A stretch of DNA of 64,000 bases from contig OX638340.1 of the NCBI GenBank assembly GCA_951812955.1, positions 1,728,001-1,792,000 of the forward strand. The letters are read 5' to 3'. Numbering within the stretch: position 1 is the first letter of the stretch; every line of letters begins with the position of its first letter. This document shows positions 9,801 through 55,422 of the stretch, in pieces. Under the pieces are notes generated by a model, which made no database searches, had not been told where the DNA came from, and was given only the letters and a program-made list of their open reading frames with translations. The DNA is from an uncultured Gemmatimonadota bacterium (GTDB lineage: Bacteria > JAAXHH01). The translations under genes and the position numbers were made by a program.

Positions 9801-10067
9801 GGAAACCTCTGCACCGAGTTATGGGCTAACTAAGCCGGCCTGCAAATCGAAAAGTCTGCGTTTCGGAGTCTGCTTCAAGGACCCGTTATACCCCCGTAAG
9901 GGATGCACCGGGCCCTGATTCATCGTCCTTCGGGCCGCACTTCCCTATTATACTCCCTTTACGGATTCAACACCCGTATATTCTAGTATCCATGCCCCTT
10001 GTTTCAATGGCCCGAAATCTATGTTCATTTCCAATAATTTGATCGCGATGCCATCGGACGCCTATCC

Positions 10068-11402
10068 ATGACCGACCTCTTCTCCGAACAGGCTGAAAAG
10101 CAACTCCAGCGTGAAGGGCCGCTGGCGGCGCGCATGCGGCCGGATTCTCTGGAAGGCTTCCTGGGCCAGCAGGGGCTGGTCGGCCAGGGTCGCCTCCTGA
10201 ATGAATCCATCGAGCGGGACACACCCTTTTCCATGATCCTGTGGGGGCCGCCGGGTTCGGGCAAGACTACCCTCGCCTTCATCATCGCCCGATCTACGGA
10301 CTCCCATTTCGTGCCGCTGAGCGCCGTGAACGCTGGCGTGAAGGACCTGCACCGGGCGGCTTCCGAGGCCCGGGACCGGCTGGGCATGCACCGCAAGCGG
10401 ACCATTCTCTTCATAGACGAGATCCATCGATTCAACAAGCTGCAACAGGACGCCGTGCTGCCGACCGTGGAGAACGGGACGCTGACCCTCATCGGGGCGA
10501 CGACGGAGAACCCGTCCTTCGAAGTCAACGGCGCCCTGCTGTCTCGCTGCCGTGTGCTGCGCCTGGAACCCCTGGCTGAGGACGACCTGGCAAGGATCGT
10601 ACGTGGTGCGCTGGAAGACGGCGAACACGGTCTCGGCGGGCGGAATATAGAAATGGACGAGGAAGCGGTCGAGCACCTCGCTTCCGTGGCCGGCGGCGAC
10701 GCGCGGGTCGCACTGAATACCCTCGAGGTGGCGGCCATGACCACGCCGCGAGATGACGACGCCCGGATACGACTGACCACGAAGGAGATCGACGAAGCCC
10801 TGCAGCACCGGGCGCCGCAGTACGACAAGGGTGGAGACTGGCACTTCGATGCGATATCGGCCCTGCACAAAAGCGTGCGGGACTCCGATCCGGACGGAGC
10901 GCTGTACTGGCTGGCCCGGATGCTCATCGCCGGGGACGATCCCCTGTACATTGCCCGCCGGATCATCCGCATGTCGGTGGAGGACATCGGACTGGCCGAC
11001 CCCTTCGCCCTGACCCTGACCACCTCGGCCCAGCAGGCCGTCCATTTCGTGGGCCAGCCCGAAGGCGACCTGATGCTCGCCCACGCGGTGGTGTACCTCG
11101 CCACGGCGCCGAAGAGCAACGCGGTCTACTCGGCCTTTTCAAAGGCGCGGCGGGACGCGGAGCAGACGAGCGACGAGCCCGTGCCCATGCACCTGCGCAA
11201 CGCCCCGACCAGCCTGATGAAGGAAATGGGCCACGGCAAGGGATACAAGTACGCCCATGACCACGACGGGGCGGCCGTGGACCAGGAGCATCTGCCCGAA
11301 TCCATTCAAGGGCATCGCTACTACGAACCCACCAACCGGGGACGGGAAGAAAAGATCCGTTCGTGGATGGAGAAGATGCGGAAGATCAGGGAGAGGGGTT
11401 GA
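10068..11402 (+). CDS. rarA: Replication-associated recombination protein A (AAA+ ATPase RarA/MgsA)
   Basis: Walker A GPPGSGKTTLA, Walker B LFIDEIHRFNK, and the MgsA C-terminal helical domains. 444 aa. Confidence 0.95.
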   Translation: MTDLFSEQAEKQLQREGPLAARMRPDSLEGFLGQQGLVGQGRLLNESIERDTPFSMILWGPPGSGKTTLAFIIARSTDSHFVPLSAVNAGVKDLHRAASEARDRLGMHRKRTILFIDEIHRFNKLQQDAVLPTVENGTLTLIGATTENPSFEVNGALLSRCRVLRLEPLAEDDLARIVRGALEDGEHGLGGRNIEMDEEAVEHLASVAGGDARVALNTLEVAAMTTPRDDDARIRLTTKEIDEALQHRAPQYDKGGDWHFDAISALHKSVRDSDPDGALYWLARMLIAGDDPLYIARRIIRMSVEDIGLADPFALTLTTSAQQAVHFVGQPEGDLMLAHAVVYLATAPKSNAVYSAFSKARRDAEQTSDEPVPMHLRNAPTSLMKEMGHGKGYKYAHDHDGAAVDQEHLPESIQGHRYYEPTNRGREEKIRSWMEKMRKIRERG

Positions 11403-44015: not shown

Positions 44016-46781
44016 ATGCAGAGCGCCAACCAAACACCTGAACAGAAGGCACGAGACATCATCGACGTCAGGCTGGAACGCGCTGGCTGGAACTTACAGT
44101 CGAAGAACGAGATCGACTTCAGCGCTGGTCGCGGTATTGCCGTTCGCGAGTATCCGACAGACATAGGCCCCGCGGATTACGTCCTTTTTGTCGACAAGAA
44201 ACCAACCGGCGTGGTTGAGGCCAAACCTGCCACGCAGGGTCAAAATATCACGACTGTCGAGGAGCAGTCATCTGGTTATGCCAATGCCAACCTCAAGTGG
44301 GTAGACAACAAAGAGCCACTCCCCTTTGTCTACGAATCTACCGGCGAGCTCACGAGGTTCACCGACAGTCGCGACCCGAATCCTCGCTCACGAGAAGTGT
44401 TCAGCTTCCATCGGCCAGAGACCATGGCGAACTGGCTCAGCCAGTCCAATCCACTGCGTGAGCGGCTCCAGGGGCTGCCGGAATTGGATGTCAAAGGACT
44501 CAGGGCGTGCCAGATAAACGCCATCGAGAACCTTGAAACATCCTTCAAAAAGGACCACCCTCGCGCCCTCATTCAGATGGCTACCGGCTCCGGTAAAACC
44601 TACACAGCCATTACCTCGATCTACCGACTGCTCAAGCACGCTGACGCCAGGCGAGTCCTCTTCCTTGTAGACACCAGAAACCTCGGCGAACAGGCCGAAC
44701 AGGAATTCATGGCCTACGTGCCCGGTGACGACAACCGCAAGTTCACCGAGCTGTACAACGTCCAGCGCCTCAAATCGTCCTACGTCGCCAACGACAGCCA
44801 GGTCTGCATCAGCACGATCCAGCGTATGTATTCGATTCTGAGGGACGAGGAACTGGATGACGCTACAGAGCAAATCAACCCGGCGGAAATGGTGCAGCCC
44901 AAAAAACCAGTGCCGGTTGCCTATAACGAGAAGATCCCACCGGAGTTCTTCGACTTCATCATCATCGACGAATGCCACCGCTCGATTTACAACCTGTGGC
45001 GGCAAGTCCTCGAGTATTTTGATGCCTATCTCATCGGCCTGACTGCTACGCCGGACAACCGAACCTATGGATTCTTCCGAAAGAACGTGGTCAGTGAATA
45101 CCCACATGAGGAAGCCGTCGCCGACGGCGTAAACGTCGGCAACGAAGTCTATGTCATCGACACGGAAAGGACAAAGCACGGCGGAAGACTCAAGGCGGAG
45201 CAGCAAGTTGAAAAACGCGAGCGCCTGACGCGGCTCAAACGCTGGGAGATTCAGGACGAGGACGTCACCTACACCGCCAAGGAACTCGACCGGTCCGTCG
45301 TCAACCCCGACCAGATCCGCACCGTCATCCGCACTTTCCGTGACAAACTGCCTGAGATATTCCCGGGCCGCGCCGAAGTCCCGAAGACGCTCGTTTTTGC
45401 AAAGACCGACAGCCATGCCGACGACGTCATCCAGACCGTGCGCGAAGAATTCGGCGAAAGTAACGAGTTCTGCAAGAAGGTCACTTACAAAACCGAAGAA
45501 GACCCGAAATCCGTCCTCGCCCAGTTCCGCAACGACTACTATCCGCGCATCGCGGTAACCGTGGATATGATCGCCACGGGTACCGACGTAAAGCCGCTCG
45601 AATGCCTGCTCTTCATGCGTGACGTGAGGAGCCGTAACTATTTCGAGCAGATGAAAGGTCGTGGCACCCGCACCCTCGACCATGACGATCTCAGACAGGT
45701 CTCGCCCTCCGCCGCCAGCGGAAAGACCCACTACGTGATCGTGGACACCGTAGGGGTCACGAAATCGCTCAAGACCGCCAGCCAGCCGCTCGTCACCAAG
45801 CCCTCCGTGCCACTCAGGGACCTCCTCATGGGGGTGATGATGGGCGCATGCGATGAAGACACGGTGAGTTCGCTCGCCGGGCGCCTCGCGCGGCTTGATC
45901 AACAACTCGATTCCGCCGATAAAGAGCGGATCAAGAAGCAAGCCGGCGGTATCGAACTCACTCAAATCGTTGGCGATCTACTTGCCGCCATCGACCCTGA
46001 TCGCATTCAGGAAAAGGCGCATGGAATCGAACCCGTGCCCGACGGTGTTGAACCACCACCTGCCGTTTGCGAGAAGGCCCGGGAGCAGCTGGTCCATGAC
46101 GCAGCCGACGTGTTCAACGGCGAACTGGTCGAATTGATCGACTCGATACGTCGCGACAAGGATCAGACGATCGACCATGACAGCTTGGACAAGGTAACCC
46201 GCGCCGAATGGGAAGGCGACACGCGCGAGAACGCCGAAGCCATAGCGCAGGACTTCCGGCAGTATCTCGAAGCGAATCGCGATGAGATCGAAGCGCTGAC
46301 CATCTTCTTCGCCCAACCGCACCGTCGCCGGGAGTTGACGTACGCCATGATTCGTGAAGTCTTCGATAGACTGAAGAGCGACCAGCCTCGACTGGTCCCA
46401 TTACGGGTCTGGCAGGCCTATGTTCTGCTCGACGAATACAAAGGCGGTCAGCCAATCAGCGAACTGACTGCGCTTGTAGCGTTGATTCGCCGTGCCTGTG
46501 GCATCGATGGAAAGCTTTCGCCCTATTCGGAAACCGTGCGCCGGAATTTCCGGGACTGGATCATGAAGCGACACAGCGGTAGCGGAGAGAAGTTCAACGA
46601 CGAGCAGATGGACTGGCTGCGAATGATCCGCGAACACATCATCACTTCGTTTCATCTTGAACGCGATGATCTGGATTTAGCACCATTCGATAGCAGGGGT
46701 GGAATGGGGCAGATGTACAAGCTCTTCGGTGACCAGATGGATGAATTGATTGGCGAGTTGAATGAGATACTGGCGGCGTAA
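44016..46781 (+). CDS. hsdR: Type I restriction enzyme R (endonuclease/translocase) subunit
   Basis: N-terminal PD-(D/E)xK nuclease core (D...VVEAKP). SF2 helicase motif I QMATGSGKTYTAI and motif II DECHRS. 921 aa. Confidence 0.93.
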   Translation: MQSANQTPEQKARDIIDVRLERAGWNLQSKNEIDFSAGRGIAVREYPTDIGPADYVLFVDKKPTGVVEAKPATQGQNITTVEEQSSGYANANLKWVDNKEPLPFVYESTGELTRFTDSRDPNPRSREVFSFHRPETMANWLSQSNPLRERLQGLPELDVKGLRACQINAIENLETSFKKDHPRALIQMATGSGKTYTAITSIYRLLKHADARRVLFLVDTRNLGEQAEQEFMAYVPGDDNRKFTELYNVQRLKSSYVANDSQVCISTIQRMYSILRDEELDDATEQINPAEMVQPKKPVPVAYNEKIPPEFFDFIIIDECHRSIYNLWRQVLEYFDAYLIGLTATPDNRTYGFFRKNVVSEYPHEEAVADGVNVGNEVYVIDTERTKHGGRLKAEQQVEKRERLTRLKRWEIQDEDVTYTAKELDRSVVNPDQIRTVIRTFRDKLPEIFPGRAEVPKTLVFAKTDSHADDVIQTVREEFGESNEFCKKVTYKTEEDPKSVLAQFRNDYYPRIAVTVDMIATGTDVKPLECLLFMRDVRSRNYFEQMKGRGTRTLDHDDLRQVSPSAASGKTHYVIVDTVGVTKSLKTASQPLVTKPSVPLRDLLMGVMMGACDEDTVSSLAGRLARLDQQLDSADKERIKKQAGGIELTQIVGDLLAAIDPDRIQEKAHGIEPVPDGVEPPPAVCEKAREQLVHDAADVFNGELVELIDSIRRDKDQTIDHDSLDKVTRAEWEGDTRENAEAIAQDFRQYLEANRDEIEALTIFFAQPHRRRELTYAMIREVFDRLKSDQPRLVPLRVWQAYVLLDEYKGGQPISELTALVALIRRACGIDGKLSPYSETVRRNFRDWIMKRHSGSGEKFNDEQMDWLRMIREHIITSFHLERDDLDLAPFDSRGGMGQMYKLFGDQMDELIGELNEILAA

Positions 46782-46928: not shown

Positions 46929-47177
46929 TTGGAGCGTATCGTGCCCAAAGTCAGCGCCAAGCGACAGATAACGCTTCCGGCTGATCAGTGCCGTCTGGTC
47001 GGTATCGAGCCAGGCGACGAGTGCCAGAGTTTCGTGGCCGATGGCCGCATTACCATAGTCCGCCAGGAGCCCGGCAGCGCCTGGGGATGTCTGTCGCATC
47101 TCGAAGGGGATCAGACGGTTTCAGACGAGGAGTCGCGCCAGAACGCCATGGAGAGAAAGCGGGACCAAACGCCTTGA
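46929..47177 (+). CDS. vapB: AbrB/SpoVT/MazE-fold antitoxin (VapB-like)
   Basis: Swapped-hairpin segment SAKRQITLPADQCRLVGIEPGDE. The stop overlaps the start of a PIN-domain gene. Confidence 0.7.
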   Translation: MERIVPKVSAKRQITLPADQCRLVGIEPGDECQSFVADGRITIVRQEPGSAWGCLSHLEGDQTVSDEESRQNAMERKRDQTP

Positions 47178-47575
47178 TCGCAATCGACACCAATGTCCTG
47201 CTGCGCTATCTCCTGAAAGATGATGAGGCGCAGGCTGAACGGGCGCGTAGCGTTATCGAGTGCGGCGAGCGCGTGCTCATTACGGACGTGGTACTGGCGG
47301 AAACGGTATGGACGTTAGCCGGCCGCAGATATCGCGCGAGCCGGACCGATCTGATCGATCTGGTCAACAAACTGCTGCAAGATGCCAACCTGTGCTTTGA
47401 GGATGACGAAGTGGTCTGGAGCGCCCTGCAGGCCTTTCGCAGGACGGAGGCGGACTTCGCCGACGCCCTGATCGTGTGCAAGGCCAGAAAGACGGTCCCC
47501 GCCGGCGACGAGTTGAGCGCGGTTTACACCTTCGATGATACCGCCTTGCAGTTGCCCGGTACCGCAGAGCCGTAG
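47174..47575 (+). CDS. vapC: PIN-domain ribonuclease toxin (VapC-like)
   Basis: TTG at 47174 overlaps the vapB TGA (TTGA). PIN acidic residues IAIDTNVLL ... ITDVVLAE ... DFADALI. The track ORF is over-extended upstream. Confidence 0.72.
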   Translation: MIAIDTNVLLRYLLKDDEAQAERARSVIECGERVLITDVVLAETVWTLAGRRYRASRTDLIDLVNKLLQDANLCFEDDEVVWSALQAFRRTEADFADALIVCKARKTVPAGDELSAVYTFDDTALQLPGTAEP

Positions 47576-47689: not shown

Positions 47690-49231
47690 GTGAATACTAT
47701 GATTCCAAATGGATGGGCCCATACATCGCTTGAAGCGGTGTGTCAGGTTCTCGATTCTAAGCGTATACCGTTAAATAACAGCGAACGTTCTCGACGTATC
47801 GCTGGTAAGTCCGCTGATGATCTTTACCCCTACTACGGCGCTACAGGTCAAGTCGGTGTAATTGACGATTTTATCTTTGATGGAGAACATGTTTTATTGG
47901 GCGAAGACGGTGCCCCATTTAATGATCCTTTCAAGGTAAAATCTTATCTGGTAGATGGGAAATTCTGGGTCAACAATCATGCTCATATTCTCAAATCAGC
48001 TATCCCAAACAGATATCTATGCCACTATCTCAATCAGATTGACTATTCTGGCTATGTAACAGGAACGACAAGACTGAAGCTTACTCAGACCGCATTAAAG
48101 CGAATTCCTGTTCTTGTTGCTCCCAAAGCCGAACAACACCGCATCGTCGCCAAAATCGAGGAACTGTTTTCCAAACTGGACAAGGGCATTGAGAGCCTGA
48201 AGGCGGCGAGGGCAAAGCTCGATGTCTATCGTCAGGCCGTGCTCAAGCACGCCTTCGAAGGCAAGCTCACGGCCCAGTGGCGCGAAGAGAACAAGGACAA
48301 GCTTGAGACACCCGAGCAATTACTCTCACGCATCAAAAAAGAGCGGGAAGCACGTTATAATAGGCAACTGCAGGAGTGGAAGGACGCCGTCAAGAAATGG
48401 GTGGAAGGCGGTAAGTCAGGAAAGAAGCCGACGAAACCTCCGAAGTTGGAGGAAATACCACACTTATCGATAACCGAAACAGTAACTCTTCCACCCCTCC
48501 CCGCTAATTGGGCTTATTTACACTTGGGGCTTGTGATCGACGAGCCCAAGTACGGTAGTTCGAAGAAATGTAACTACGACTACAAAGGCACAGGGGTTTT
48601 GAGAATACCTAATATCGTCCGAGGTGCAGTCGACACGTCCGATCTCAAAGGGACTCACTTCGAAGAGGACGAGAAACGCGCCTACGGTTTGAGGAGTGGT
48701 GAAATTCTCGTGATCCGATCAAACGGAAGTATCTCCGTAGTAGGTAGGTGCGCTCTAATCTCAAAAGCAGAAGAGCAGTATCTGTACGCTGGTTACCTTA
48801 TCCGCCTACGTAGTAACTTGACCGCGTTGCATCCCGAGTACCTTGTAGCTCTACTGTCAAGCCATCTGTTACGAACTCAAATCGAGCACAAAGCAAAATC
48901 GACTAGCGGTGTCAACAACATAAATTCGGGTGAAATCCAATCGCTCATCGTCCCTTTGTGCAGTCTCAGTGAGCAGGAAATAGTAGTCGAACGACTGTCT
49001 GCAAGTCTATCCTCGATTGACGCTATCAAGGGTGAGATCGACAATCAGCTACTACAAACCGAAGCCCTGCACCAATCCATCCTCAAGAAAGCATTCTCGG
49101 GCCAGCTCGTCCCGCAAGACCCGAATGACGAGCCCGCGTCAATTCTGCTTGAGCGCATCAATGGCGTAAAAGCTGCACTATCTCAAAACAACACACAGAG
49201 AAGACGTAGACACGAGAAGGCAACGGCATGA
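47690..49231 (+). CDS. hsdS: Type I restriction-modification specificity subunit
   Basis: Two target-recognition domains separated and followed by conserved coiled-coil spacer repeats (AKIEELFSKLDKGIESL ...). 513 aa. Confidence 0.9.
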   Translation: MNTMIPNGWAHTSLEAVCQVLDSKRIPLNNSERSRRIAGKSADDLYPYYGATGQVGVIDDFIFDGEHVLLGEDGAPFNDPFKVKSYLVDGKFWVNNHAHILKSAIPNRYLCHYLNQIDYSGYVTGTTRLKLTQTALKRIPVLVAPKAEQHRIVAKIEELFSKLDKGIESLKAARAKLDVYRQAVLKHAFEGKLTAQWREENKDKLETPEQLLSRIKKEREARYNRQLQEWKDAVKKWVEGGKSGKKPTKPPKLEEIPHLSITETVTLPPLPANWAYLHLGLVIDEPKYGSSKKCNYDYKGTGVLRIPNIVRGAVDTSDLKGTHFEEDEKRAYGLRSGEILVIRSNGSISVVGRCALISKAEEQYLYAGYLIRLRSNLTALHPEYLVALLSSHLLRTQIEHKAKSTSGVNNINSGEIQSLIVPLCSLSEQEIVVERLSASLSSIDAIKGEIDNQLLQTEALHQSILKKAFSGQLVPQDPNDEPASILLERINGVKAALSQNNTQRRRRHEKATA

Positions 49232-49983
49232 CCGGCAAACTTGCCATCAACATCGATAACCTGCTGCGCCAGCGTGCCATCGAAGAGGCGCTGGTGAACG
49301 CCATCGACCATCGCTCATACGAGGAGCGGGAGCCGGTTGAAGTTCGGATCACCCGCGATGAGTTGCTGGTCCTGAGTTATCCCGGGGCGGACCGCTCCAT
49401 CCGTATGGACGACTTCAAGCAGGGGCAGGCCGTGAGCAGGCGCTACCGGAACCGGCGAATTGGTGAGTTTCTGAAGGAACTCGACCTCGCCGAGGCCTGC
49501 TCAACCGGGGTGCCGAAGATTTTCACGGCCATGCAGCAGAACGGCTCACCGGAACCCATCTTCGAAAGCGACGAGAACCGGACCTGGTTTCGCGTGCGCC
49601 TGCCGGTGCATGAACGGGCATTACTTGCCACGACCGACCAGGATACCATACATGATACCCAACATGATAACTCATTGATAAATAAAAGGAAAAGTCACGG
49701 TACCCAACACGGTACCCAACATGATACCCAACATGATATCGACCAAGTCGAGCAACTGGTGGCTGTGCTCACTGGAGAGATGAGCCGAGCTAGTATCCAG
49801 GCAGGATTGGAACTCAAAGATCGGCCCCATTTCATCGAATCGTATCTAAAGCCTGCCCTGGAGGCCAAGTTGATTGAAATGACCCTCCCGGACAAACCCA
49901 CCAGTCGCCACCAGCGCTATCGCCTAACTGCCGCTGGAAAGGCTTTAGCTGAGCAAATCAAACGAGAGAACACCGCCAAATGA
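49228..49983 (+). CDS. HATPase_c_4 (RecG-C-terminal-like) plus wHTH small protein embedded in the hsdS-hsdM operon
   Basis: Segment NAIDHRSYEEREPVEVRITRDELLVLSYPG ... WFRVRLPVH matches the C-terminal module of Schlafen/AlbA_2-type putative regulators common in R-M loci. ATGA overlaps at both ends (49228/49231 and 49980/49983). Internal HGTQHGTQHDTQHD repeat. Confidence 0.5.
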   Translation: MTGKLAINIDNLLRQRAIEEALVNAIDHRSYEEREPVEVRITRDELLVLSYPGADRSIRMDDFKQGQAVSRRYRNRRIGEFLKELDLAEACSTGVPKIFTAMQQNGSPEPIFESDENRTWFRVRLPVHERALLATTDQDTIHDTQHDNSLINKRKSHGTQHGTQHDTQHDIDQVEQLVAVLTGEMSRASIQAGLELKDRPHFIESYLKPALEAKLIEMTLPDKPTSRHQRYRLTAAGKALAEQIKRENTAK

Positions 49984-51467
49984 ACACCGCTCCCATCGTA
50001 TCCAAAGTCTGGAGTTTCTGCAACACCCTGCGCGACGACGGGGTGAGCTATGGCGATTACCTGGAACAACTCACCTATCTGATATTTCTGAAGATGGCAG
50101 ACGAGTACGCCAAACCGCCGTACAGTCGGGACGTCGGCATCCCGGTCGAATTCAACTGGCAGAGCCTGAGATCGAAGAACGGCGCGGAACTCGAAGGCCA
50201 CTACGTCGCGCTGCTTCGAGCCTTCGGCACCAGGACGGGCATGCTGGGCCAAGTCTTTACCAGGGCCCAGAACAAGATCCAGGATCCGGCAAAGCTGTTC
50301 CGCCTCATCGCCATGGTGGACGACACCGAATGGGTCACCATGGGCGCCGACATAAAAGGGGATATCTACGAAGGGCTCCTGGAGAAGAACGCCGAAGATA
50401 CCAAGACCGGCGCGGGCCAGTATTTCACGCCGCGTGCTCTCATCCGGGCCATGGTCGAGTGCGTACGGCCCGAACCGGGAATGCTCATCGCTGACCCGGC
50501 CTGCGGTACGGGCGGTTTCTTTCTCGCTGCATACGACTTCATCACCAACCAGGACAATTTCAGGTTAGACAAGGATCAAAAAGCGTTCCTGAAACACGAG
50601 GCGTTTCACGGCAATGAAATCGTCCCCAATACACGCCGTCTTTGCCTGATGAACATGTTCCTGCACAATATCGGTGAAATCGACGGCGGCGTCCCGATAT
50701 CGCCCAACGACGCGCTGGTGGCCGATGCCGGCAAGCGTTACGACTATGTGCTGGCGAATCCGCCCTTCGGCAAGAAAAGTTCCATGAGTTTCACGAACGA
50801 GGAAGGCGAACAGGAAACCGACGACCTGACCTACAACCGGCAGGATTTCTGGGCGACGACCTCGAACAAACAGCTGAATTTCGTGCAGCACATCCGCACG
50901 ATGCTCAAGACCACCGGCCGCGCTGCTGTCGTCGTTCCCGACAATGTACTGTTCGAAGGCGGGGCCGGTGAGACGATCCGCAAAAAGCTGCTGGACAACA
51001 CGGACTTGCACACCATCCTGCGCCTGCCGACGGGCGTGTTCTACGCGCAGGGCGTCAAGGCCAATGTGATCTTCTTCGACAATCACGAAGCCAGCCCGAA
51101 TCCCTGGACGAAGCAGGTCTGGTACTACGACTACCGCACCAATATCCACCATACGCTGAAGAAGAAACCACTGCGCTTCGAGGACCTGTCGGATTTCATC
51201 AACTGCTACAACCCGCAGAATCGCCACCAGCGCAAGGCGACCTGGGACGAAAACGATGCACCGGAAGGCCGTTGGAGGAGTTACAGCTACGAGGAGATAA
51301 TCGCGCGCGACAAGACCAGTCTCGACATCTTCTGGCTCAAGGACAAAAGCCTGACGGACCTGGACAACCTGCCCGAACCTGATGACCTTGCCGAAGAGAT
51401 CATAGAGAACCTGGAGGCAGGTCTCAACAGCTTTCGCGAGGTGCTGGCTGGATTGGGGAGGCAGTAG
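49980..51467 (+). CDS. hsdM: Type I restriction-modification N6-adenine DNA methyltransferase subunit
   Basis: HsdM N-terminal domain, motif I DPACGTGGF, motif IV NPPFG. 495 aa. Confidence 0.95.
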   Translation: MNTAPIVSKVWSFCNTLRDDGVSYGDYLEQLTYLIFLKMADEYAKPPYSRDVGIPVEFNWQSLRSKNGAELEGHYVALLRAFGTRTGMLGQVFTRAQNKIQDPAKLFRLIAMVDDTEWVTMGADIKGDIYEGLLEKNAEDTKTGAGQYFTPRALIRAMVECVRPEPGMLIADPACGTGGFFLAAYDFITNQDNFRLDKDQKAFLKHEAFHGNEIVPNTRRLCLMNMFLHNIGEIDGGVPISPNDALVADAGKRYDYVLANPPFGKKSSMSFTNEEGEQETDDLTYNRQDFWATTSNKQLNFVQHIRTMLKTTGRAAVVVPDNVLFEGGAGETIRKKLLDNTDLHTILRLPTGVFYAQGVKANVIFFDNHEASPNPWTKQVWYYDYRTNIHHTLKKKPLRFEDLSDFINCYNPQNRHQRKATWDENDAPEGRWRSYSYEEIIARDKTSLDIFWLKDKSLTDLDNLPEPDDLAEEIIENLEAGLNSFREVLAGLGRQ

Positions 51468-51608: not shown

Positions 51609-53777
51609 ATGAATAGTAACTGCAAAACTGAAGTTCGATCCGAATCTGAAATAGTCACCGATTTAGAGAGTTTGAGCCAGGAAAAAGGGTACATCTATTC
51701 CTTCTGTCGAATGGTTGATGAATACCTGTGGTTGAAACCCAGCGAACCCGAAATCCCTGATTGGCACAGTCAATTAAACATACGTGAGTTAACTTTCTTA
51801 TTAGGGTTAATGGTCAAGTATCAATTGACCATATCTGATTCTCCGACTGAACGGGAGTCTGACCTACATATCGATAAGACCAATGAGTTGTTTCATGAAC
51901 TTCATCAAACTCATGCTTTTCCGAAAACAAAGGAAGTAAACGCCGCCCAAGTGAACTTAGAAGATTGGGAATCGGGGTTGAAAAACACCTATACCGACTG
52001 GATCAAAAGCGGTAAAGGTATCGTCGAGCCGGTTTTTTATGGTGAAGAAGGTGCATACGATTTCCAGTTCCTCAAAATGGCAGCATGGAGGTACAAACTT
52101 GATAATCAGTGGATAAAGTCGAACATAGGTATGGATGTTGATACTTTAACTGATATCGCAGGTAAGATTAAACGACTTACCGAATATCGCGCCAATGATG
52201 TAACCAGGACGTCAGACTTCAGAGATTCATGCTTTCGGTTGATATCAGTCTTCTTAATTAAGCCAGATGGCGTTCCTGGCGCTAATAGAGAAGAAATCGA
52301 AGTCTTTCTTGAAACCTTTTCTGTTGAACCACGGGACGGAGTTAATCAGAACCTTAACACGATTGGTGAATACAACACGGCAGACTCGCACCCCATTATT
52401 AAGATTAACAATGAACTTTATTTCATTCCCATCTACTACAACCTAGCAAAATCCATCTACGAGAACCCCTTCTACTGGATTCTCAAAGACAGTGATTACA
52501 GACAAACAGGACTTCAGAACAGGGGTGATGTTACAGAAGAAATAGTATTCGAACTGTTACGACGAGTTTTTGGTATAGACAACGTTTTTCGCAGGGTAAA
52601 AATAAAACGTGGAAACAGAGACATAACGGATATCGACGTTCTTGCAGTATGTGGGAGTAAAGCTGTCATTGTACAGGTGAAATCTAAGAGACTTACGGTG
52701 CTGTCGAAAGGTGGTGATGGCAAGAGCATAGAGAAGGATTTCAAACAAGCTGTTCAGGATGCTTACACCCAAGCGTTATTGTCGAGAAACTTCCTGCTAG
52801 AGACAGATGAAACACTGACGGTTAATGAAGAAAGGCTAATGCAGGTCAAAGGGAACATCGATGATGCCTATATAATCTGCGCTACTGGTGATCATTATCC
52901 TGCAATTACTATTCAGACAAAGTCATACCTCAAAAAGAAGGCAACCGACCCTTACCCAGTTGTACTAAGCGTTTTTGACCTTGATACTATATCGTTTTAC
53001 CTCAGAGAACCGTATGATTTCATATACTACGTTCGTCAACGCACTATACATGCGGGTCACTTCGAGGCTGATTCAGAAATGGCCTTTCTTGGTTTTCATC
53101 TAAACAAAAAACTATTTCCCACAGATGGATATGATATCACGATTATCCCACAATATTATGCATATCTCATCGATATTAGTTTTCCAGTCCTAAAGGGTGA
53201 GCATCCTATTTCGGATGCAGCATACAAGGTATTCCACAAGTGGAAAAACAACGATTTTGATGAGCTAGTTAATGAAATCAAAGTTAGAAATACCGGTCAT
53301 CCACAACTGACAGATTTGATTTTCTTTTTGTTCGATTTAGCAGGATCAGTAGCCGACAAGATTTTCGAAATCTTCGGCGAAATCAAACGAACCACTCGTG
53401 GTGACCTAAAGCCTCACGATGCTACAATTCCAATAGACCAAGCCGGGAAAGGTATAACACTGTTCTGCTACCCTTCGACGTTAGAACTTAGTGAGACAAT
53501 AATCCAAGATCAGTTTCGAGGCTTTGCAGCTGCTCGGAAATACAAAAGCAAAGCTAATGAATGGTTAGCGCTCGCATCATCCGCACAAAGTTCAAATCTG
53601 TTTGACTGTCTCTGGTATAGTAAAGAAGTATGGTGTTATGATGAGAGTTTCGAGCGTCTATCAAAACACATGATTAAACAAGGACATCCCATTCGTACTG
53701 ACGGACGGAAAATAGGTAGAAATTCACCCTGCCCTTGTGGAAGTGGATTGAAGTTTAAAAAGTGCCACGGAAAATAA
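51609..53777 (+). CDS. Large uncharacterised protein with a NERD-like (PD-(D/E)xK-type) core and a C-terminal SEC-C zinc-binding motif
   Basis: 722 aa, AT-rich. Segment RGNRDITDIDVLAVCGSKAVIVQVKSKR matches the NERD/PD-(D/E)xK D...(E/Q)xK core. The C-terminus GRNSPCPCGSGLKFKKCHGK is a SEC-C (SecA C-terminal-type) metal-binding motif. Confidence 0.6.
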   Translation: MNSNCKTEVRSESEIVTDLESLSQEKGYIYSFCRMVDEYLWLKPSEPEIPDWHSQLNIRELTFLLGLMVKYQLTISDSPTERESDLHIDKTNELFHELHQTHAFPKTKEVNAAQVNLEDWESGLKNTYTDWIKSGKGIVEPVFYGEEGAYDFQFLKMAAWRYKLDNQWIKSNIGMDVDTLTDIAGKIKRLTEYRANDVTRTSDFRDSCFRLISVFLIKPDGVPGANREEIEVFLETFSVEPRDGVNQNLNTIGEYNTADSHPIIKINNELYFIPIYYNLAKSIYENPFYWILKDSDYRQTGLQNRGDVTEEIVFELLRRVFGIDNVFRRVKIKRGNRDITDIDVLAVCGSKAVIVQVKSKRLTVLSKGGDGKSIEKDFKQAVQDAYTQALLSRNFLLETDETLTVNEERLMQVKGNIDDAYIICATGDHYPAITIQTKSYLKKKATDPYPVVLSVFDLDTISFYLREPYDFIYYVRQRTIHAGHFEADSEMAFLGFHLNKKLFPTDGYDITIIPQYYAYLIDISFPVLKGEHPISDAAYKVFHKWKNNDFDELVNEIKVRNTGHPQLTDLIFFLFDLAGSVADKIFEIFGEIKRTTRGDLKPHDATIPIDQAGKGITLFCYPSTLELSETIIQDQFRGFAAARKYKSKANEWLALASSAQSSNLFDCLWYSKEVWCYDESFERLSKHMIKQGHPIRTDGRKIGRNSPCPCGSGLKFKKCHGK

Positions 53778-53847: not shown

Positions 53848-54918
53848 TTATTCTTCTTGTTCTTCGGGATATGGGAGGACTGGGGCTGTTGTCCAGCCTT
53901 CACGTTCAGGTGAATTATGTCCTGTACATATAGTTCTGCCCTCTGTCGAAACTACTTTCGCCCCACGGTGTATACAAGCCCGAATAACTGCTTTTCTAGG
54001 GTGATCCTCGTCTTCTTTAGACGCACTTATAATTGCGTTAAAATGTTCGTTTCCCTCTTCTTGCTTCTCTGGCAGTCGCTTACCCAGCAATCTGTCAAGT
54101 ATCTCCGTTGATAAATTGCGTCGTGATCCGTGGTGCGGGACCTGAAAATGGTCAATTCCTGGAAGTGTCAGTCCTACTGATGGCGCATAATCCAGTGCCT
54201 CGGTAAGTGCACCTCGTCCTGCATCCGCAGTCAGTAATACCTTTTTCTCGCAAAGATTAGCATACTGGATCACACTCATCTCATTTTCAAAGCTAGTTTC
54301 TTCCGGTGAAAACGTTTCTTCACCCCATGCAGATCTTATAAACGAAACAACACTTTTTACGAAAGCACGTCCATGTCCTAACAATGATTGAGCTGTCCCT
54401 TCCGGAGTTCTATCGGATTCAACAATGAGATTCAGATACCTTTCTTTTGATGGTGCAAGGACCGTGAACTCTCCGATTTGTTCTCCTTGAAATGGTGCCA
54501 ATATCGGTATCTCTCGTGCCTTAGCAATCTCTTCAAGTTCGGCAATGTTTGGGTATATTTCCTTTAGCCTACGAACCAGATTCTCCACATTTGTAAAACG
54601 AGCAAACCGGTCAATTAACTCATCTGCATATAGCCATGGTCGTAACATCCACAACTCTGAGACGCTAAATGCTTCGAGGACTTTTCGTAGCCCGCCTGTA
54701 TGGTCGCCATCGGAATGACTGGCTATAACGGCATCAATCGTGCTAGGGTCATCATAATACTTTTTGATATGCTCAATTACAATGTCTCCAGAATCCTGAA
54801 ATCCTCCATCAGTTACGTGAACTCTCTTGACACCAGCTATGGAATACCGAAGTGGTATTGCATCCCCGCTCTTGCTTGACTTTACGTCAAGGAAATCAAT
54901 TTCAAAAAAGTATGACAT
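53848..54918 (-). CDS. Metallo-beta-lactamase-fold hydrolase, ComEC-C-terminal-like (putative nuclease)
   Basis: MBL motifs HVTDGG (D), ASHSDGDHTGG (variant HxHxDH), LLTADAG, and a terminal VPHHGS motif reminiscent of ComEC/Rec2-type MBL domains. 356 aa, AT-rich. Confidence 0.65.
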   Translation of the reverse strand: MSYFFEIDFLDVKSSKSGDAIPLRYSIAGVKRVHVTDGGFQDSGDIVIEHIKKYYDDPSTIDAVIASHSDGDHTGGLRKVLEAFSVSELWMLRPWLYADELIDRFARFTNVENLVRRLKEIYPNIAELEEIAKAREIPILAPFQGEQIGEFTVLAPSKERYLNLIVESDRTPEGTAQSLLGHGRAFVKSVVSFIRSAWGEETFSPEETSFENEMSVIQYANLCEKKVLLTADAGRGALTEALDYAPSVGLTLPGIDHFQVPHHGSRRNLSTEILDRLLGKRLPEKQEEGNEHFNAIISASKEDEDHPRKAVIRACIHRGAKVVSTEGRTICTGHNSPEREGWTTAPVLPYPEEQEE

Positions 54919-54921
54919 ATG

Positions 54922-55422
54922 CTACTCTTGCTCCTTGATTTTAGCGTTTCTTACGCGCTTAGCTACATATTGAGTCTGTTTTCTATAAGAGAATAAAAAT
55001 ATCAACAATAACCCCGCCAAAATTATTAAAACTATTTCATCATCACTTATAGACCACAAATGCTTCAACTCGTCAAAGATTTTGAGGAAAACTAACACAA
55101 TCACTAGCGAACTCAGCGTACGATACATGTTGTTCTGTTCTGACAAGACCTCGATCTTTGAATCCACTTCTACTGCTTCCAGATAATCCTTGTAGTCTGC
55201 GAACCGAACAAATTTGATCTTTTTGAGTAGGGGTTCCAATATCAACGATCCAATCCTGCTAATGACCAACCCTGCCATGTAGTATATAAACACTCCTATG
55301 ATCCAGTCCTTATGGACTAATGAAAATGAGGTGATTTGTTCTCCCAGACCAGCAAATAGAACTCCAGGAAGTAGATAGTTAAAAATGTTATATGACGACA
55401 GCTTTTCAATTACAGTTTTCAT
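54922..55422 (-). CDS. Small polytopic membrane protein, first gene of a two-gene operon with the MBL-fold hydrolase
   Basis: 166 aa with about 4 hydrophobic helices (LLPGVLFAGL, IIGVFIYYMAGLVI, LSSLVIVLVFL, IVLIILAGLLLIFLF). Its stop lies 3 nt before the MBL gene start. Confidence 0.6.
   Translation of the reverse strand: MKTVIEKLSSYNIFNYLLPGVLFAGLGEQITSFSLVHKDWIIGVFIYYMAGLVISRIGSLILEPLLKKIKFVRFADYKDYLEAVEVDSKIEVLSEQNNMYRTLSSLVIVLVFLKIFDELKHLWSISDDEIVLIILAGLLLIFLFSYRKQTQYVAKRVRNAKIKEQE

What the first reader, a model, noticed from the sequence alone, without database searches (positions are those of the whole stretch)
49228..49983. Truncated Schlafen/AlbA_2-type HATPase_c_4 gene translationally coupled between hsdS and hsdM
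The 251-aa ORF overlaps the hsdS stop and the hsdM start by ATGA at both ends, so it is an obligate member of the S-M transcript. It matches only the C-terminal HATPase_c_4 plus wHTH part of the much larger ATP-binding regulators often found in R-M loci. It also contains a His/Gln/Thr-rich HGTQHGTQHDTQHD repeat. It may be a remnant or a dedicated controller of methylase/restriction expression.
Basis: partly seen in the sequence, partly recalled or inferred. Interest (0 to 1): 0.5.

Follow-up and report, generated by a model that had tools for sequence, protein, structure and literature searches.

The report
Nuclease-deleted Schlafen gene in restriction operon
The small gene wedged between the hsdS and hsdM genes of this type I restriction system is a bacterial Schlafen-type defence gene that lost its RNA-cutting domain through a clean in-frame deletion, so it is most likely a disarmed leftover and not a new regulator.

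Summary
ORF 49228-49983 (251 aa) overlaps the hsdS stop and the hsdM start by ATGA. It matches HATPase_c_4 (E=7e-10) and the Fic-like_C winged helix (E=3e-26), joined by a disordered 12-nt-repeat linker.

It is not 5'-truncated. It keeps the first 16-19 codons of a ~540-aa Schlafen(AlbA_2)-GHKL-wHTH gene ("Schlatpase"-HTH). That gene occupies this same slot, with both ATGA overlaps, in about 20 hsdR-hsdS-X-hsdM operons across phyla; the closest is L004.

An 864-bp (288-codon) in-frame deletion between two copies of GCCATCGAAG removed the Schlafen nuclease domain (second Glu and Lys of Ex4ExK) and the middle region. The GHKL N-box was kept. The same junction occurs in three other loci, at least one of them an independent event.

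One relative (L005) retains only a 25-codon mini-ORF, still ATGA-coupled at both ends.

Best reading: a disarmed remnant that is still translated and still passes ribosomes from hsdS to hsdM. No decay is detectable (omega about 0.2, one substitution at an invariant site), so a retained function of the GHKL-wHTH half is not excluded. Nothing here supports (nor tests) a dedicated transcriptional controller role.

Moderate interest: a variant of a recently described family.

The parts
44016..46781 (+). hsdR (921 aa), first gene of the operon
   Evidence: Pfam ResIII E=2.4e-42, EcoEI_R_C E=8e-37, HSDR_N. 85% aa identity to HsdR of L004.
46929..47177 (+). Small AbrB/MazE-like antitoxin candidate (82 aa), inserted between hsdR and hsdS
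   Evidence: Weak MazE_antitoxin hit, E=0.016. Its stop overlaps the TTG start of the PIN gene as TTGA. The same toxin-antitoxin insertion is present in L087, and a PIN gene is present in L005.
47174..47575 (+). PIN-domain toxin (VapC-like)
   Evidence: Pfam PIN E=2e-11. 90% aa identity to the PIN of L087 and 69% to that of L005.
47690..49231 (+). hsdS (513 aa); its stop TGA overlaps the start of the ORF under study
   Evidence: Methylase_S E=2.7e-18, two stretches. ATGA at 49228-49231.
49228..49983 (+). The finding: an in-frame deletion allele (251 aa) of a Schlafen-GHKL-wHTH ('Schlatpase'-HTH) gene
   Evidence: ORF nt 1-58 match L004 X nt 1-58 (91%). ORF nt 49-756 match L004 X nt 913-1623 (90.6%).
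49228..49275 (+). Retained ancestral N-terminus (MTGKLAINIDNLLRQR), upstream of the deletion junction
   Evidence: Same N-terminus as the full-length homologues P0002, P0003 and L004.
49276..49285 (+). Deletion junction: the single surviving copy of the 10-nt direct repeat GCCATCGAAG (codons A-I-E)
   Evidence: In L004 the repeat occurs at X nt 49-58 and at nt 913-922, as a 12-nt identical run. The two sites are 864 nt apart in nearly all full-length orthologues.
49276..49617 (+). GHKL-type ATP-binding domain (aa 17-130), with the N-box E20-x3-N24 retained
   Evidence: PF13749 E=7.4e-10. PADLOC hit to the GHKL region of a pAgo model, E=3e-8. AF2 pLDDT 70-83 with an alpha/beta fold. Foldseek hits to 3LMM and, weakly, to histidine kinases. 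The N-box role of the Glu and Asn comes from RzAgo E314/N318.
49618..49731 (+). Disordered His/Gln/Thr/Asp-rich linker encoded by 12-nt tandem repeats (49642-49669 and 49696-49738)
   Evidence: TRF. pLDDT 30-45. dN/dS about 1 against L004 and 0.59 against L087. Length varies across homologues. The same kind of linker precedes the wHTH in the Fic protein 4RGL.
49732..49980 (+). C-terminal winged helix-turn-helix (Fic-like_C)
   Evidence: PF21247 E=2.7e-26. pLDDT above 90. 4RGL C-terminus: E=3.5e-10 by sequence, 44% identity by fold.
49980..51467 (+). hsdM (495 aa); its ATG overlaps the stop of the ORF (ATGA)
   Evidence: N6_Mtase E=9e-72, HsdM_N. 94% aa identity to HsdM of L004. The only Shine-Dalgarno-like element upstream (GAGAG) lies about 11-12 nt from the ATG.

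Best explanation
The ORF is a deletion allele of a fourth gene (X) that belongs to a widely transferred type I restriction-modification operon, hsdR-hsdS-X-hsdM.

What X is. Full-length X (~540 aa) has an N-terminal Schlafen/AlbA_2 nuclease domain carrying the catalytic Ex4ExK motif, then a middle region, a GHKL-type ATPase domain (PF13749), a variable repeat linker and a Fic-like_C winged helix.

What happened here. Recombination or replication slippage between two in-phase copies of a 10-nt direct repeat (GCCATCGAAG, encoding A-I-E) removed 864 bp (288 codons). That block held the whole Schlafen fold except its first Glu, plus the middle region. The ancestral start, the GHKL domain with its N-box, the linker, the wHTH and the ancestral stop were kept. 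This much is shown.

What follows (inferred).
1. The product can no longer do what defines this family, which is ATP-driven assembly of a Schlafen nuclease that cleaves tRNA. It is a disarmed remnant.
2. Because the deletion is in frame, ribosomes that finish hsdS still restart at the AUGA, read through X-delta and terminate on the hsdM AUGA. The ORF therefore still delivers ribosomes to hsdM, which has no well-placed Shine-Dalgarno sequence of its own.
3. Any residual activity would be that of an ATP-binding, possibly dimerising, winged-helix protein with no effector.
For: Deletion mapped at DNA level against the closest full-length locus L004. ORF nt 1-58 and nt 49-756 match L004 X nt 1-58 and nt 913-1623, overlapping on the 10-nt repeat.

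L004 X has PF04326 at aa 19-148, PF13749 at aa 325-412 and PF21247 at aa 461-523, and carries E19-GERI-E24-Y-K26. This matches the Ex4(E/D)xK catalytic motif described for prokaryotic Schlafens (PMC13056530).

Full-length X sits between hsdS and hsdM in about 20 loci from different phyla, with ATGA at both ends.

The same junction is found in L087, L084 and L088. The GHKL part of L084 is 96% identical to non-deleted copies (L009, L005 copy 2) and at most 91% identical to the other deleted alleles. The deletion has therefore happened at least twice.

Close relatives carry 9-12-nt identical runs at the two sites, which lie exactly 864 nt apart.

Dispensability and frame conservation. L005 operon 1 has R-PIN-S-M with only a 25-codon fusion of the X N-terminus and C-terminus in this slot. 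It is still ATGA-coupled on both sides.

Family mechanism. In the SLFN-GHKL 'Schlatpase' of RzAgo, ATP binding by the PF13749 domain drives tetramerisation, which builds the active Schlafen tRNase.

No second Schlatpase copy is present in the window.
Against: The retained part shows no measurable decay.
- dN/dS against L004 is 0.145 in the GHKL domain and 0.15 in the wHTH. Branch estimates give about 0.27 on both lineages, derived.
- Only one substitution falls at a site invariant in 63 full-length orthologues (R91C). Eleven of the 63 full-length genes score the same in a leave-one-out test.
- If the window and L087 inherited the deletion from a common ancestor, the divergence accumulated since (dS about 0.22, omega 0.18) would mean the shortened protein is under purifying selection, which a mere ribosome bridge would not need. 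The shared toxin-antitoxin insertion and the hsdM tree (84% bootstrap) point that way.

The dependence of hsdM translation on coupling is inferred from sequence only.

In this sample, frameshifted X alleles are not significantly rarer in operons with intact hsdS and hsdM than in orphan copies. This is my tally; the numbers are small.
Confidence: 0.6

Rival explanations
1. The nuclease-less GHKL-wHTH protein is a maintained, functional product. It could be a sensor or adaptor half that still binds ATP, dimerises and docks on DNA or on the HsdM2S complex. It could also be a dominant-negative partner that restrains full-length Schlatpases acquired elsewhere in the genome.
For: - Omega is 0.18 over GHKL + wHTH between the window and L087, two alleles with the same junction and the same toxin-antitoxin insertion. 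The observed Nd:Sd is 17.5:26.5, against about 34:10 expected if neutral.
- The hsdM tree places the window and L087 as sisters (84% bootstrap).
- The N-box E20/N24 is intact, and both domains fold with moderate to high confidence.
- Many independent in-frame alleles that keep the N-terminus and lose the Schlafen domain exist in public data: P0116, P0095, P0120, P0021, P0223, P0238, P0239.
- GHKL domains of this family mediate oligomerisation.
Against: - The deletion recurs at the same repeat (L084 is independent). The window and L087 may therefore each have lost the block recently, which would make omega uninformative.
- The X tree and the hsdR 3' tree do not support window + L087 as sisters (26% and 16% bootstrap).
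- The other same-junction alleles carry single-base indels or sit in decaying loci: L084, L087, L088.
- The window allele has Y27D next to the N-box and R91C at an invariant site.
- No second Schlatpase is seen in the 64-kb window.
- L005 dispenses with the protein altogether.
Confidence: 0.25
2. It is a dedicated transcriptional controller (C-protein-like) of the methylase and restriction genes, acting through its winged helix.
For: It has a confidently predicted winged HTH that resembles MarR/PadR-type DNA binders by fold. It is co-transcribed with the genes it would regulate (no terminator or promoter signal above chance inside the S-X-M block).
Against: - The wHTH is the ordinary C-terminal module of the full-length nuclease proteins and of Fic proteins such as 4RGL. 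It is not a feature acquired by this allele.
- There is no Xre-type HTH of known C proteins.
- Operon relatives work with full-length X (L004 and others) or with a 25-codon stub (L005), so no regulator is needed in this slot.
- Type I systems are not known to use C proteins (my own knowledge).
Confidence: 0.07
3. The short ORF is an assembly artefact, or a chance ORF.
For: The related contigs L084 and L087 come from 2-3x coverage assemblies and carry homopolymer indels.
Against: Profile matches of E=1e-10 and E=1e-26. The junction lies on a 10-nt repeat, too short to collapse in assembly. The identical junction is present in four separate assemblies. The flanking hsdS and hsdM are intact and in register.
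Confidence: 0.02

Closest known systems
'Schlatpase' proteins (Schlafen AlbA_2 + GHKL ATPase PF13749, often with a C-terminal HTH). This is the pSlfn-HisKinase-HTH architecture of bacterial Schlafens (PMC13056530; bioRxiv 10.64898/2026.05.29.728809).
   Same: Orthologous by sequence (74-88% aa identity to full-length members over the retained part) and by synteny. It has the same GHKL domain with the ExxxN N-box, the same linker and the same HTH. The preprint already notes a Schlatpase that stands alone or is fused to HsdS in type I R-M operons of Poribacteria.
   Different: It lacks the Schlafen nuclease domain and the middle region that define the supradomain. It cannot be an effector of the kind shown for RzAgo, EcoSlfn7 or Cash. 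Seven systems spanning four architectures, HisKinase fusions among them, were tested in E. coli; the two that protected were the DUF262 and Ig-like fusions. Even the full-length function is therefore inferred.
PrrC anticodon nuclease embedded in the EcoprrI type IC operon (also the RloC and Rlo genes)
   Same: An accessory gene embedded inside a type I R-M operon. For full-length X the predicted activity (a tRNA-cleaving nuclease held in check until infection) parallels PrrC, which is kept latent by the R-M complex and is unleashed by a phage anti-restriction peptide (PMC3874165).
   Different: There is no sequence or fold relationship: PrrC is an ABC-ATPase-like protein with its own nuclease domain. 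Any physical link between X and the HsdMS complex is untested. The window allele has no nuclease at all.
Fic-family protein Dde_2494 (PDB 4RGL) and Pfam Fic-like_C
   Same: It shares the C-terminal winged helix (E=3.5e-10, 44% identity) and even the preceding T/D/Q/H/V-rich repeat linker. NCBI names one homologue 'Fic family protein' for this reason.
   Different: No Fic domain is present. The similarity is confined to the last ~80 residues.
DIP2311 of Corynebacterium diphtheriae (PDB 3LMM)
   Same: It is the only solved structure that matches across both domains of the model (Foldseek E=1.5e-4; sequence E=1e-3 over aa 15-113).
   Different: It is 583 aa with additional N-terminal sequence, has only 18-19% identity, and no function has been assigned.

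Membership tests
Schlatpase / pSlfn-HisKinase-HTH | Schlafen AlbA_2 domain (PF04326) with the catalytic Ex4(E/D)xK motif | tested here: not met
   No PF04326 hit in the 251-aa ORF. Only the first Glu (E19) survives. The second Glu, the Lys and the whole fold lie in the deleted block. The orthologue L004 has PF04326 at E=2.3e-12 and EGERIEYK.
Schlatpase / pSlfn-HisKinase-HTH | GHKL-type ATPase domain PF13749 with the N-box Glu and Asn | tested here: met
   PF13749 E=7.4e-10, above the gathering score. E20-ALV-N24 is present and corresponds to E314/N318 of RzAgo. The fold is supported. ATP binding itself was not tested.
Schlatpase / pSlfn-HisKinase-HTH | Descent from family members (orthology) | tested here: met
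   90.6% nt identity to L004 X on both sides of the junction. Same operon slot and same start and stop overlaps.
Type I R-M operon (hsdR/hsdS/hsdM) accessory gene | Located inside an operon whose R, S and M genes are intact | tested here: met
   All three genes are full length with the expected Pfam domains and are collinear with about 20 related operons.
R-M controller (C) proteins | Small Xre-type HTH protein that binds an operator (C-box) upstream of its own gene and the R gene | tested here: not met
   Pfam finds no Xre or HTH_3 domain. The HTH is a winged helix of the Fic-like_C type. The gene lies between S and M, not upstream of R. A C-box was not searched for.
Fic/Doc AMPylators | Fic domain with the HxFx(D/E)GNGRxxR motif | tested here: not met
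   No Fic domain hit. Only the C-terminal accessory domain PF21247 is shared.
PrrC/RloC anticodon nucleases | ABC-ATPase-like N-domain plus a C-terminal anticodon nuclease domain | tested here: not met
   Pfam, NCBIfam and PADLOC scans gave no such hits. The resemblance is positional and functional by analogy only.
Translationally coupled gene pair | Downstream start overlapping the upstream stop, with downstream expression dependent on upstream translation | tested here: inconclusive
   ATGA overlaps at both ends are shown and are conserved across the operon family, even in the L005 mini-ORF. Dependence of hsdM expression on coupling cannot be tested with these tools.

The most novel reading that the evidence does not exclude
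The Schlafen-less GHKL-wHTH protein is not a relic but a selected derivative. Repeated excision of the nuclease at a built-in 9-12-nt direct repeat converts an abortive-infection effector embedded in a type I R-M operon into a harmless ATP-binding winged-helix protein. That protein is then kept under purifying selection, for example as an adaptor or regulator of the R-M complex or as an inhibitor of related Schlatpases. The repeat would then act as a one-way 'disarm switch'.
Probability: 0.2. Interest if true: 0.6.

Novelty: new variant of a known kind. Interest (0 to 1): 0.4.

Why it matters
Bacterial Schlafen-GHKL ('Schlatpase') proteins were shown to be defence nucleases only in 2025-2026. 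The commonest architecture, with a C-terminal HTH, has no demonstrated function.

This locus and its relatives show three things.
1. That architecture is a conserved fourth gene of a horizontally mobile hsdR-hsdS-X-hsdM operon, locked to its neighbours by start/stop overlaps. This makes a PrrC-like 'second line behind restriction' role directly testable.
2. The nuclease half is lost repeatedly by the same repeat-mediated in-frame deletion.
3. Even near-total loss keeps the reading frame that links hsdS to hsdM.

For annotation, the point is practical. Short 'ATP-binding protein', 'Fic family' or 'RecG-like' ORFs inside type I operons can be internally deleted Schlafen genes and should not be called regulators.

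Tried and rejected
- N-terminal truncation or an internal start was rejected. The ORF begins with the family's own N-terminus.
- Closest protein hits P0002 and P0003 were examined as possible full-length references. They are themselves internally deleted (about 103 aa of the middle region are missing) and are not in R-M loci. I built a composite from P0108 and P0007 and then used L004.
- An exact look-up of the window protein in the contig index found nothing. The cluster look-up gave no name or organism.
- Decay tests were negative. I counted deviations at conserved columns, ran a leave-one-out test at invariant sites, and compared dN/dS against L004 and outgroups. None separates the window allele from full-length genes.
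- The attempt to decide whether the window and L087 share the deletion by descent gave conflicting trees: hsdM says yes (84%), hsdR 3' says no, and X is unresolved.
- Two scans of JGI metagenome contigs with junction-specific patterns found nothing.
- The search with the wHTH alone returned only short PF21247-only fragments (49-153 aa). It gave no information on Fic proteins in R-M loci.
- Promoter and terminator scans inside the operon gave nothing above shuffled expectation. Rfam gave no hit in the window.
- I tallied frameshifted X alleles in operons with and without intact hsdM. The numbers are too small to support selection for an open frame, so that argument rests on the ATGA conservation and on the L005 mini-ORF only.
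Full report
**Observation**

The window carries an operon-like block on the + strand:
- hsdR, 44016-46781
- a small AbrB/MazE-like ORF, 46929-47177
- a PIN gene, 47174-47575, with a TTGA overlap to the preceding ORF
- hsdS, 47690-49231
- the ORF in question, 49228-49983
- hsdM, 49980-51467

The ATG of the ORF overlaps the hsdS stop (gcATGAcc, 49228-49231). Its stop overlaps the hsdM ATG (aaATGAac, 49980-49983).

Pfam gives HATPase_c_4 (PF13749, aa 36-123, E=7.4e-10) and Fic-like_C (PF21247, aa 172-234, E=2.7e-26). Both are above their gathering scores. NCBIfam has nothing significant. PADLOC matches the GHKL region of a long pAgo model (E=3e-8). This fits the later finding that PF13749 is the ATPase of Schlafen-Argonaute fusions.

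The HGTQHGTQHDTQHD stretch is encoded by 12-nt tandem repeats.

**What it is**

A search of 5.8 billion proteins found 2207 relatives. The best ones that carry a Schlafen AlbA_2 domain (P0002, P0003) begin MTGKLPINIDHLLRQRTIEGERIEYK. That is the same N-terminus as the window ORF, MTGKLAINIDNLLRQRAIEEALVNA. The ORF is therefore not 5'-truncated. It keeps both ends of the ancestral gene and lacks the interior.

A scan of one genome per species returned 80 loci. A tblastn survey used the window's HsdR/S/M and a 535-aa composite of the family. It showed two things:
- The intact gene (here X) is about 515-560 aa.
- In about 20 loci from very different lineages X lies exactly between hsdS and hsdM of operons homologous to the window's. 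The record titles name Rhodothermales, Latescibacterota, Binatia, Nitrospirales, Arenicellales, Spirochaetia, Pseudomonadales, Nitrosomonas and others.

The closest locus, L004, has HsdR 85%, HsdM 94% and X 88% aa identity to the window. Its HsdS is only about 45% identical, as expected for swapped specificity domains. In these operons both ATGA overlaps are conserved.

L004 X has PF04326 at aa 19-148, PF13749 at aa 325-412 and PF21247 at aa 461-523.

**The deletion**

At the DNA level, ORF nt 1-58 align to L004 X nt 1-58 (91%). ORF nt 49-756 align to L004 X nt 913-1623 (90.6%). The two alignments overlap on GCCATCGAAG (window 49276-49285). In L004 this sequence is present twice, as a 12-nt identical run, 864 nt apart and in the same codon phase (A-I-E).

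The event is thus an 864-bp, 288-codon deletion between short direct repeats.

What it removes:
- E24 and K26 of the E19-x4-E24-x-K26 motif. This is the Ex4(E/D)xK catalytic signature of prokaryotic and human Schlafen RNases.
- The rest of the Schlafen fold.
- The ~150-aa middle region.

What it leaves:
- E20-x3-N24, the GHKL N-box. It is equivalent to E314/N318, which bind Mg-ATP in the Schlafen-Argonaute RzAgo.

An AlphaFold2 model built with 99 sequences has an alpha/beta domain (aa 9-130, pLDDT 70-83), a disordered linker (aa 130-166, pLDDT 30-45) and a winged helix (aa 165-250, pLDDT above 90).

Foldseek and sequence searches of the PDB gave these hits:
- the C-terminal domain of the Fic protein 4RGL (44% identity, and it includes a similar repeat linker)
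- the uncharacterised DIP2311 (3LMM), matched across both domains
- histidine-kinase and PDK ATP-binding domains, weakly

**Recurrence**

The identical junction occurs in three further assemblies:
- L087: R-antitoxin-PIN-...-S-X-delta-M-SIR2; 92.6% nt identity to the window in GHKL + wHTH.
- L088: a decaying locus in which the hsdS C-terminus is fused to X-delta.
- L084: R-S-X-delta followed by an hsdM 5' fragment, a PhdYefM-PIN pair and hsdM.

In the GHKL region L084 is 96.2% identical to the non-deleted copies in L009 and L005. It is at most 90.7% identical to the other deleted alleles. The same deletion has therefore occurred at least twice.

In nearly all full-length orthologues the two sites are exactly 864 nt apart. 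In the window's closest relatives they share 9-12 identical bases. This explains the hot spot.

Other in-frame internal deletions with different junctions, all keeping the N-terminus, are common among database proteins: P0116, P0095, P0120, P0021, P0074/78/79, P0108, P0223, P0238, P0239, and the middle-region deletion of P0002/3/5/18. There is an ascertainment bias here. Only in-frame events keep the N-terminus in a called ORF, and most other database hits start at internal methionines.

**A deletion series**

L005 contains an R-PIN-S-M operon as close to the window's as L004's is (HsdM 93%). In it the 74-nt 'spacer' between hsdS and hsdM is a 25-codon ORF, MTGKLPINIDHLLREMKIKRKNAPT*. It consists of the first 14 codons of X fused in frame to about the last 10. 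ATGA overlaps are kept on both sides.

The same slot thus holds 540, 251 or 25 codons in closely related operons. In each case the frame that links the hsdS stop to the hsdM start is open.

In the window, the sequence upstream of hsdM has only a GAGAG element about 11-12 nt from the ATG. No promoter-like or terminator-like signal above shuffled expectation lies within S-X-M.

I infer that hsdM translation relies on termination-reinitiation. The ORF, whatever else it does, serves as the ribosome bridge. This is inference, not measurement.

**Is the remnant decaying?**

It is not detectably decaying.
- NG86 dN/dS between the window and L004 is 0.145 in the GHKL domain, 0.15 in the wHTH and about 1 in the linker.
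- Using L007 as outgroup, the window branch and the L004 branch both give omega of about 0.27 (computed).
- At the 44 columns invariant in 63 full-length orthologues the window has one change (R91C). In a leave-one-out test, 11 of 63 full-length genes also have one.
- Y27D, next to the N-box, is a second unusual change.

Between the window and L087, omega is 0.18 over GHKL + wHTH (Nd 17.5, Sd 26.5).

If those two alleles inherited the deletion, this is purifying selection on the shortened protein. If each lost the block separately and recently, it says nothing. The evidence is split:
- For shared descent: both share the toxin-antitoxin insertion between hsdR and hsdS, and hsdM groups them (84% bootstrap).
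- Against: the hsdR 3' end groups L087 with L004 (76%), and X itself is unresolved.

I therefore keep 'functional derivative' as a live rival at about 0.25.

**How the full-length gene probably works**

This is inferred from the literature.
- The Schlafen + PF13749 pair has been named the Schlatpase supradomain. [quoted passage not shown] The nuclease then cleaves tRNA and aborts infection.
- Most Schlatpases are small proteins with or without a C-terminal HTH. A stand-alone or HsdS-fused Schlatpase was noted in type I R-M operons of Poribacteria.
- In the survey of bacterial Schlafens, HisKinase-HTH fusions make up 19% of the family. Seven systems spanning four architectures, HisKinase fusions among them, were tested in E. 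coli; the two that protected were the DUF262 and Ig-like fusions.
- An accessory nuclease embedded in a type I operon recalls PrrC. PrrC is held latent by EcoprrI and is released when a phage peptide blocks restriction.

By analogy, full-length X would be a second-line tRNase. The window allele has lost the part that would do the damage.

**Comparison and novelty**

The family and its link to R-M loci are known, very recently. The following are not described in the papers I could read:
- the conserved R-S-X-M arrangement with double ATGA coupling across phyla
- the repeat-mediated, recurrent, in-frame excision of the nuclease
- the series down to a 25-codon stub

The window ORF fails the defining test of the family (no Schlafen domain), although it is an orthologue by descent. 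I file it as a deletion variant of a known kind.

It is not a Fic protein, not a C protein and not a PrrC homologue.

**Verdict**

- Observation: confirmed.
- 'Truncated Schlafen-type gene, translationally coupled': right, with the correction that the loss is internal.
- 'Remnant': best supported.
- 'Dedicated controller': unsupported.
- Interest: moderate (0.4).

Noticed in passing
window 46929-47575: A VapBC-like pair is inserted between hsdR and hsdS. It consists of a small AbrB/MazE-like ORF and a PIN toxin whose TTG start overlaps the antitoxin stop as TTGA. An AT-rich stretch with a promoter-like TTTACA-18-TATATT site precedes it. L087 has the same insertion (PIN 90% aa) and L005 has a PIN there (69% aa). 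L004 has none. L084 instead has a PhdYefM-PIN pair between X-delta and hsdM.
   Followed up: partly
L005 4275-4352: A 25-codon mini-ORF (MTGKLPINIDHLLREMKIKRKNAPT*) fills the gap between hsdS and hsdM. It is a near-total in-frame deletion of the Schlafen gene that still keeps both ATGA overlaps. The same contig holds a second, decayed copy of the locus at about 8900-11075 (hsdS fragment, frameshifted X, hsdM fragment).
   Followed up: yes
L019 10711-11301; L021 10711-11284; L024 10789-12217; L033/L034 after X: Between full-length X and the intact hsdM there are tandem leftovers. These are an hsdM 5' fragment (29-77 codons) followed by a second partial X (wHTH only, or GHKL + wHTH). L033, L034, P0011, P0014 and P0036 carry two wHTH copies in one ORF. 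This suggests repeated recombination at the X-3'/hsdM-5' boundary.
   Followed up: no
L004 about 10010-10025 (X codons about 309-313): The closest full-length orthologue has a one-codon insertion inside the GHKL N-box (EALVKNAIY instead of EALVNAIY). Its ATPase may therefore be impaired although the gene is intact.
   Followed up: no
window 51609-53777: Immediately downstream of hsdM lies a 722-aa protein with a NERD nuclease-related domain (E=4e-5) and a C-terminal SEC-C zinc motif (E=2.5e-9). In L087 this position is occupied by a 1060-aa SIR2_2 protein. Both look like variable defence cargo next to the R-M operon.
   Followed up: partly
window 53848-55422 (- strand): A metallo-beta-lactamase-fold protein (355 aa) is followed by a 166-aa predicted membrane protein with a weak 8xMP hit. 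They lie in a low-GC stretch (0.40-0.43) of the same island. The island (about 43-59 kb) has GC of 0.40-0.58, against 0.59-0.62 in the flanks.
   Followed up: no
L026 5912-10666; L052, L069, L080 (between hsdS and X); L061: Several related operons have kilobase-sized insertions inside X (L026 about 3.2 kb, L061 about 1.3 kb) or between hsdS and X (about 4-5 kb). These break the S-X coupling while the X-hsdM overlap is kept. The inserted DNA was not examined.
   Followed up: no
(database-wide): High-identity copies (60-88% aa) of this gene and its operon occur in MAGs of many phyla. The record titles suggest marine or host-associated communities, implying recent horizontal spread. Most of the 120 best protein-database hits are N-terminally shortened ORFs and none exceeds 440 aa. 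By contrast, most copies in species-representative genomes are full length. The reason for this contrast (pseudogenes, gene calling or low-coverage assemblies) is unexplained.
   Followed up: partly
L001-L003 (8001-9308): The nearest protein-database relatives (P0002, P0003) are orphan copies not linked to an R-M system. They sit next to a divergently oriented AAA_11/AAA_12 helicase-DUF559 gene and a HicA toxin. They carry a different in-frame deletion (about 103 aa of the middle region) that keeps both the Schlafen and GHKL domains.
   Followed up: partly
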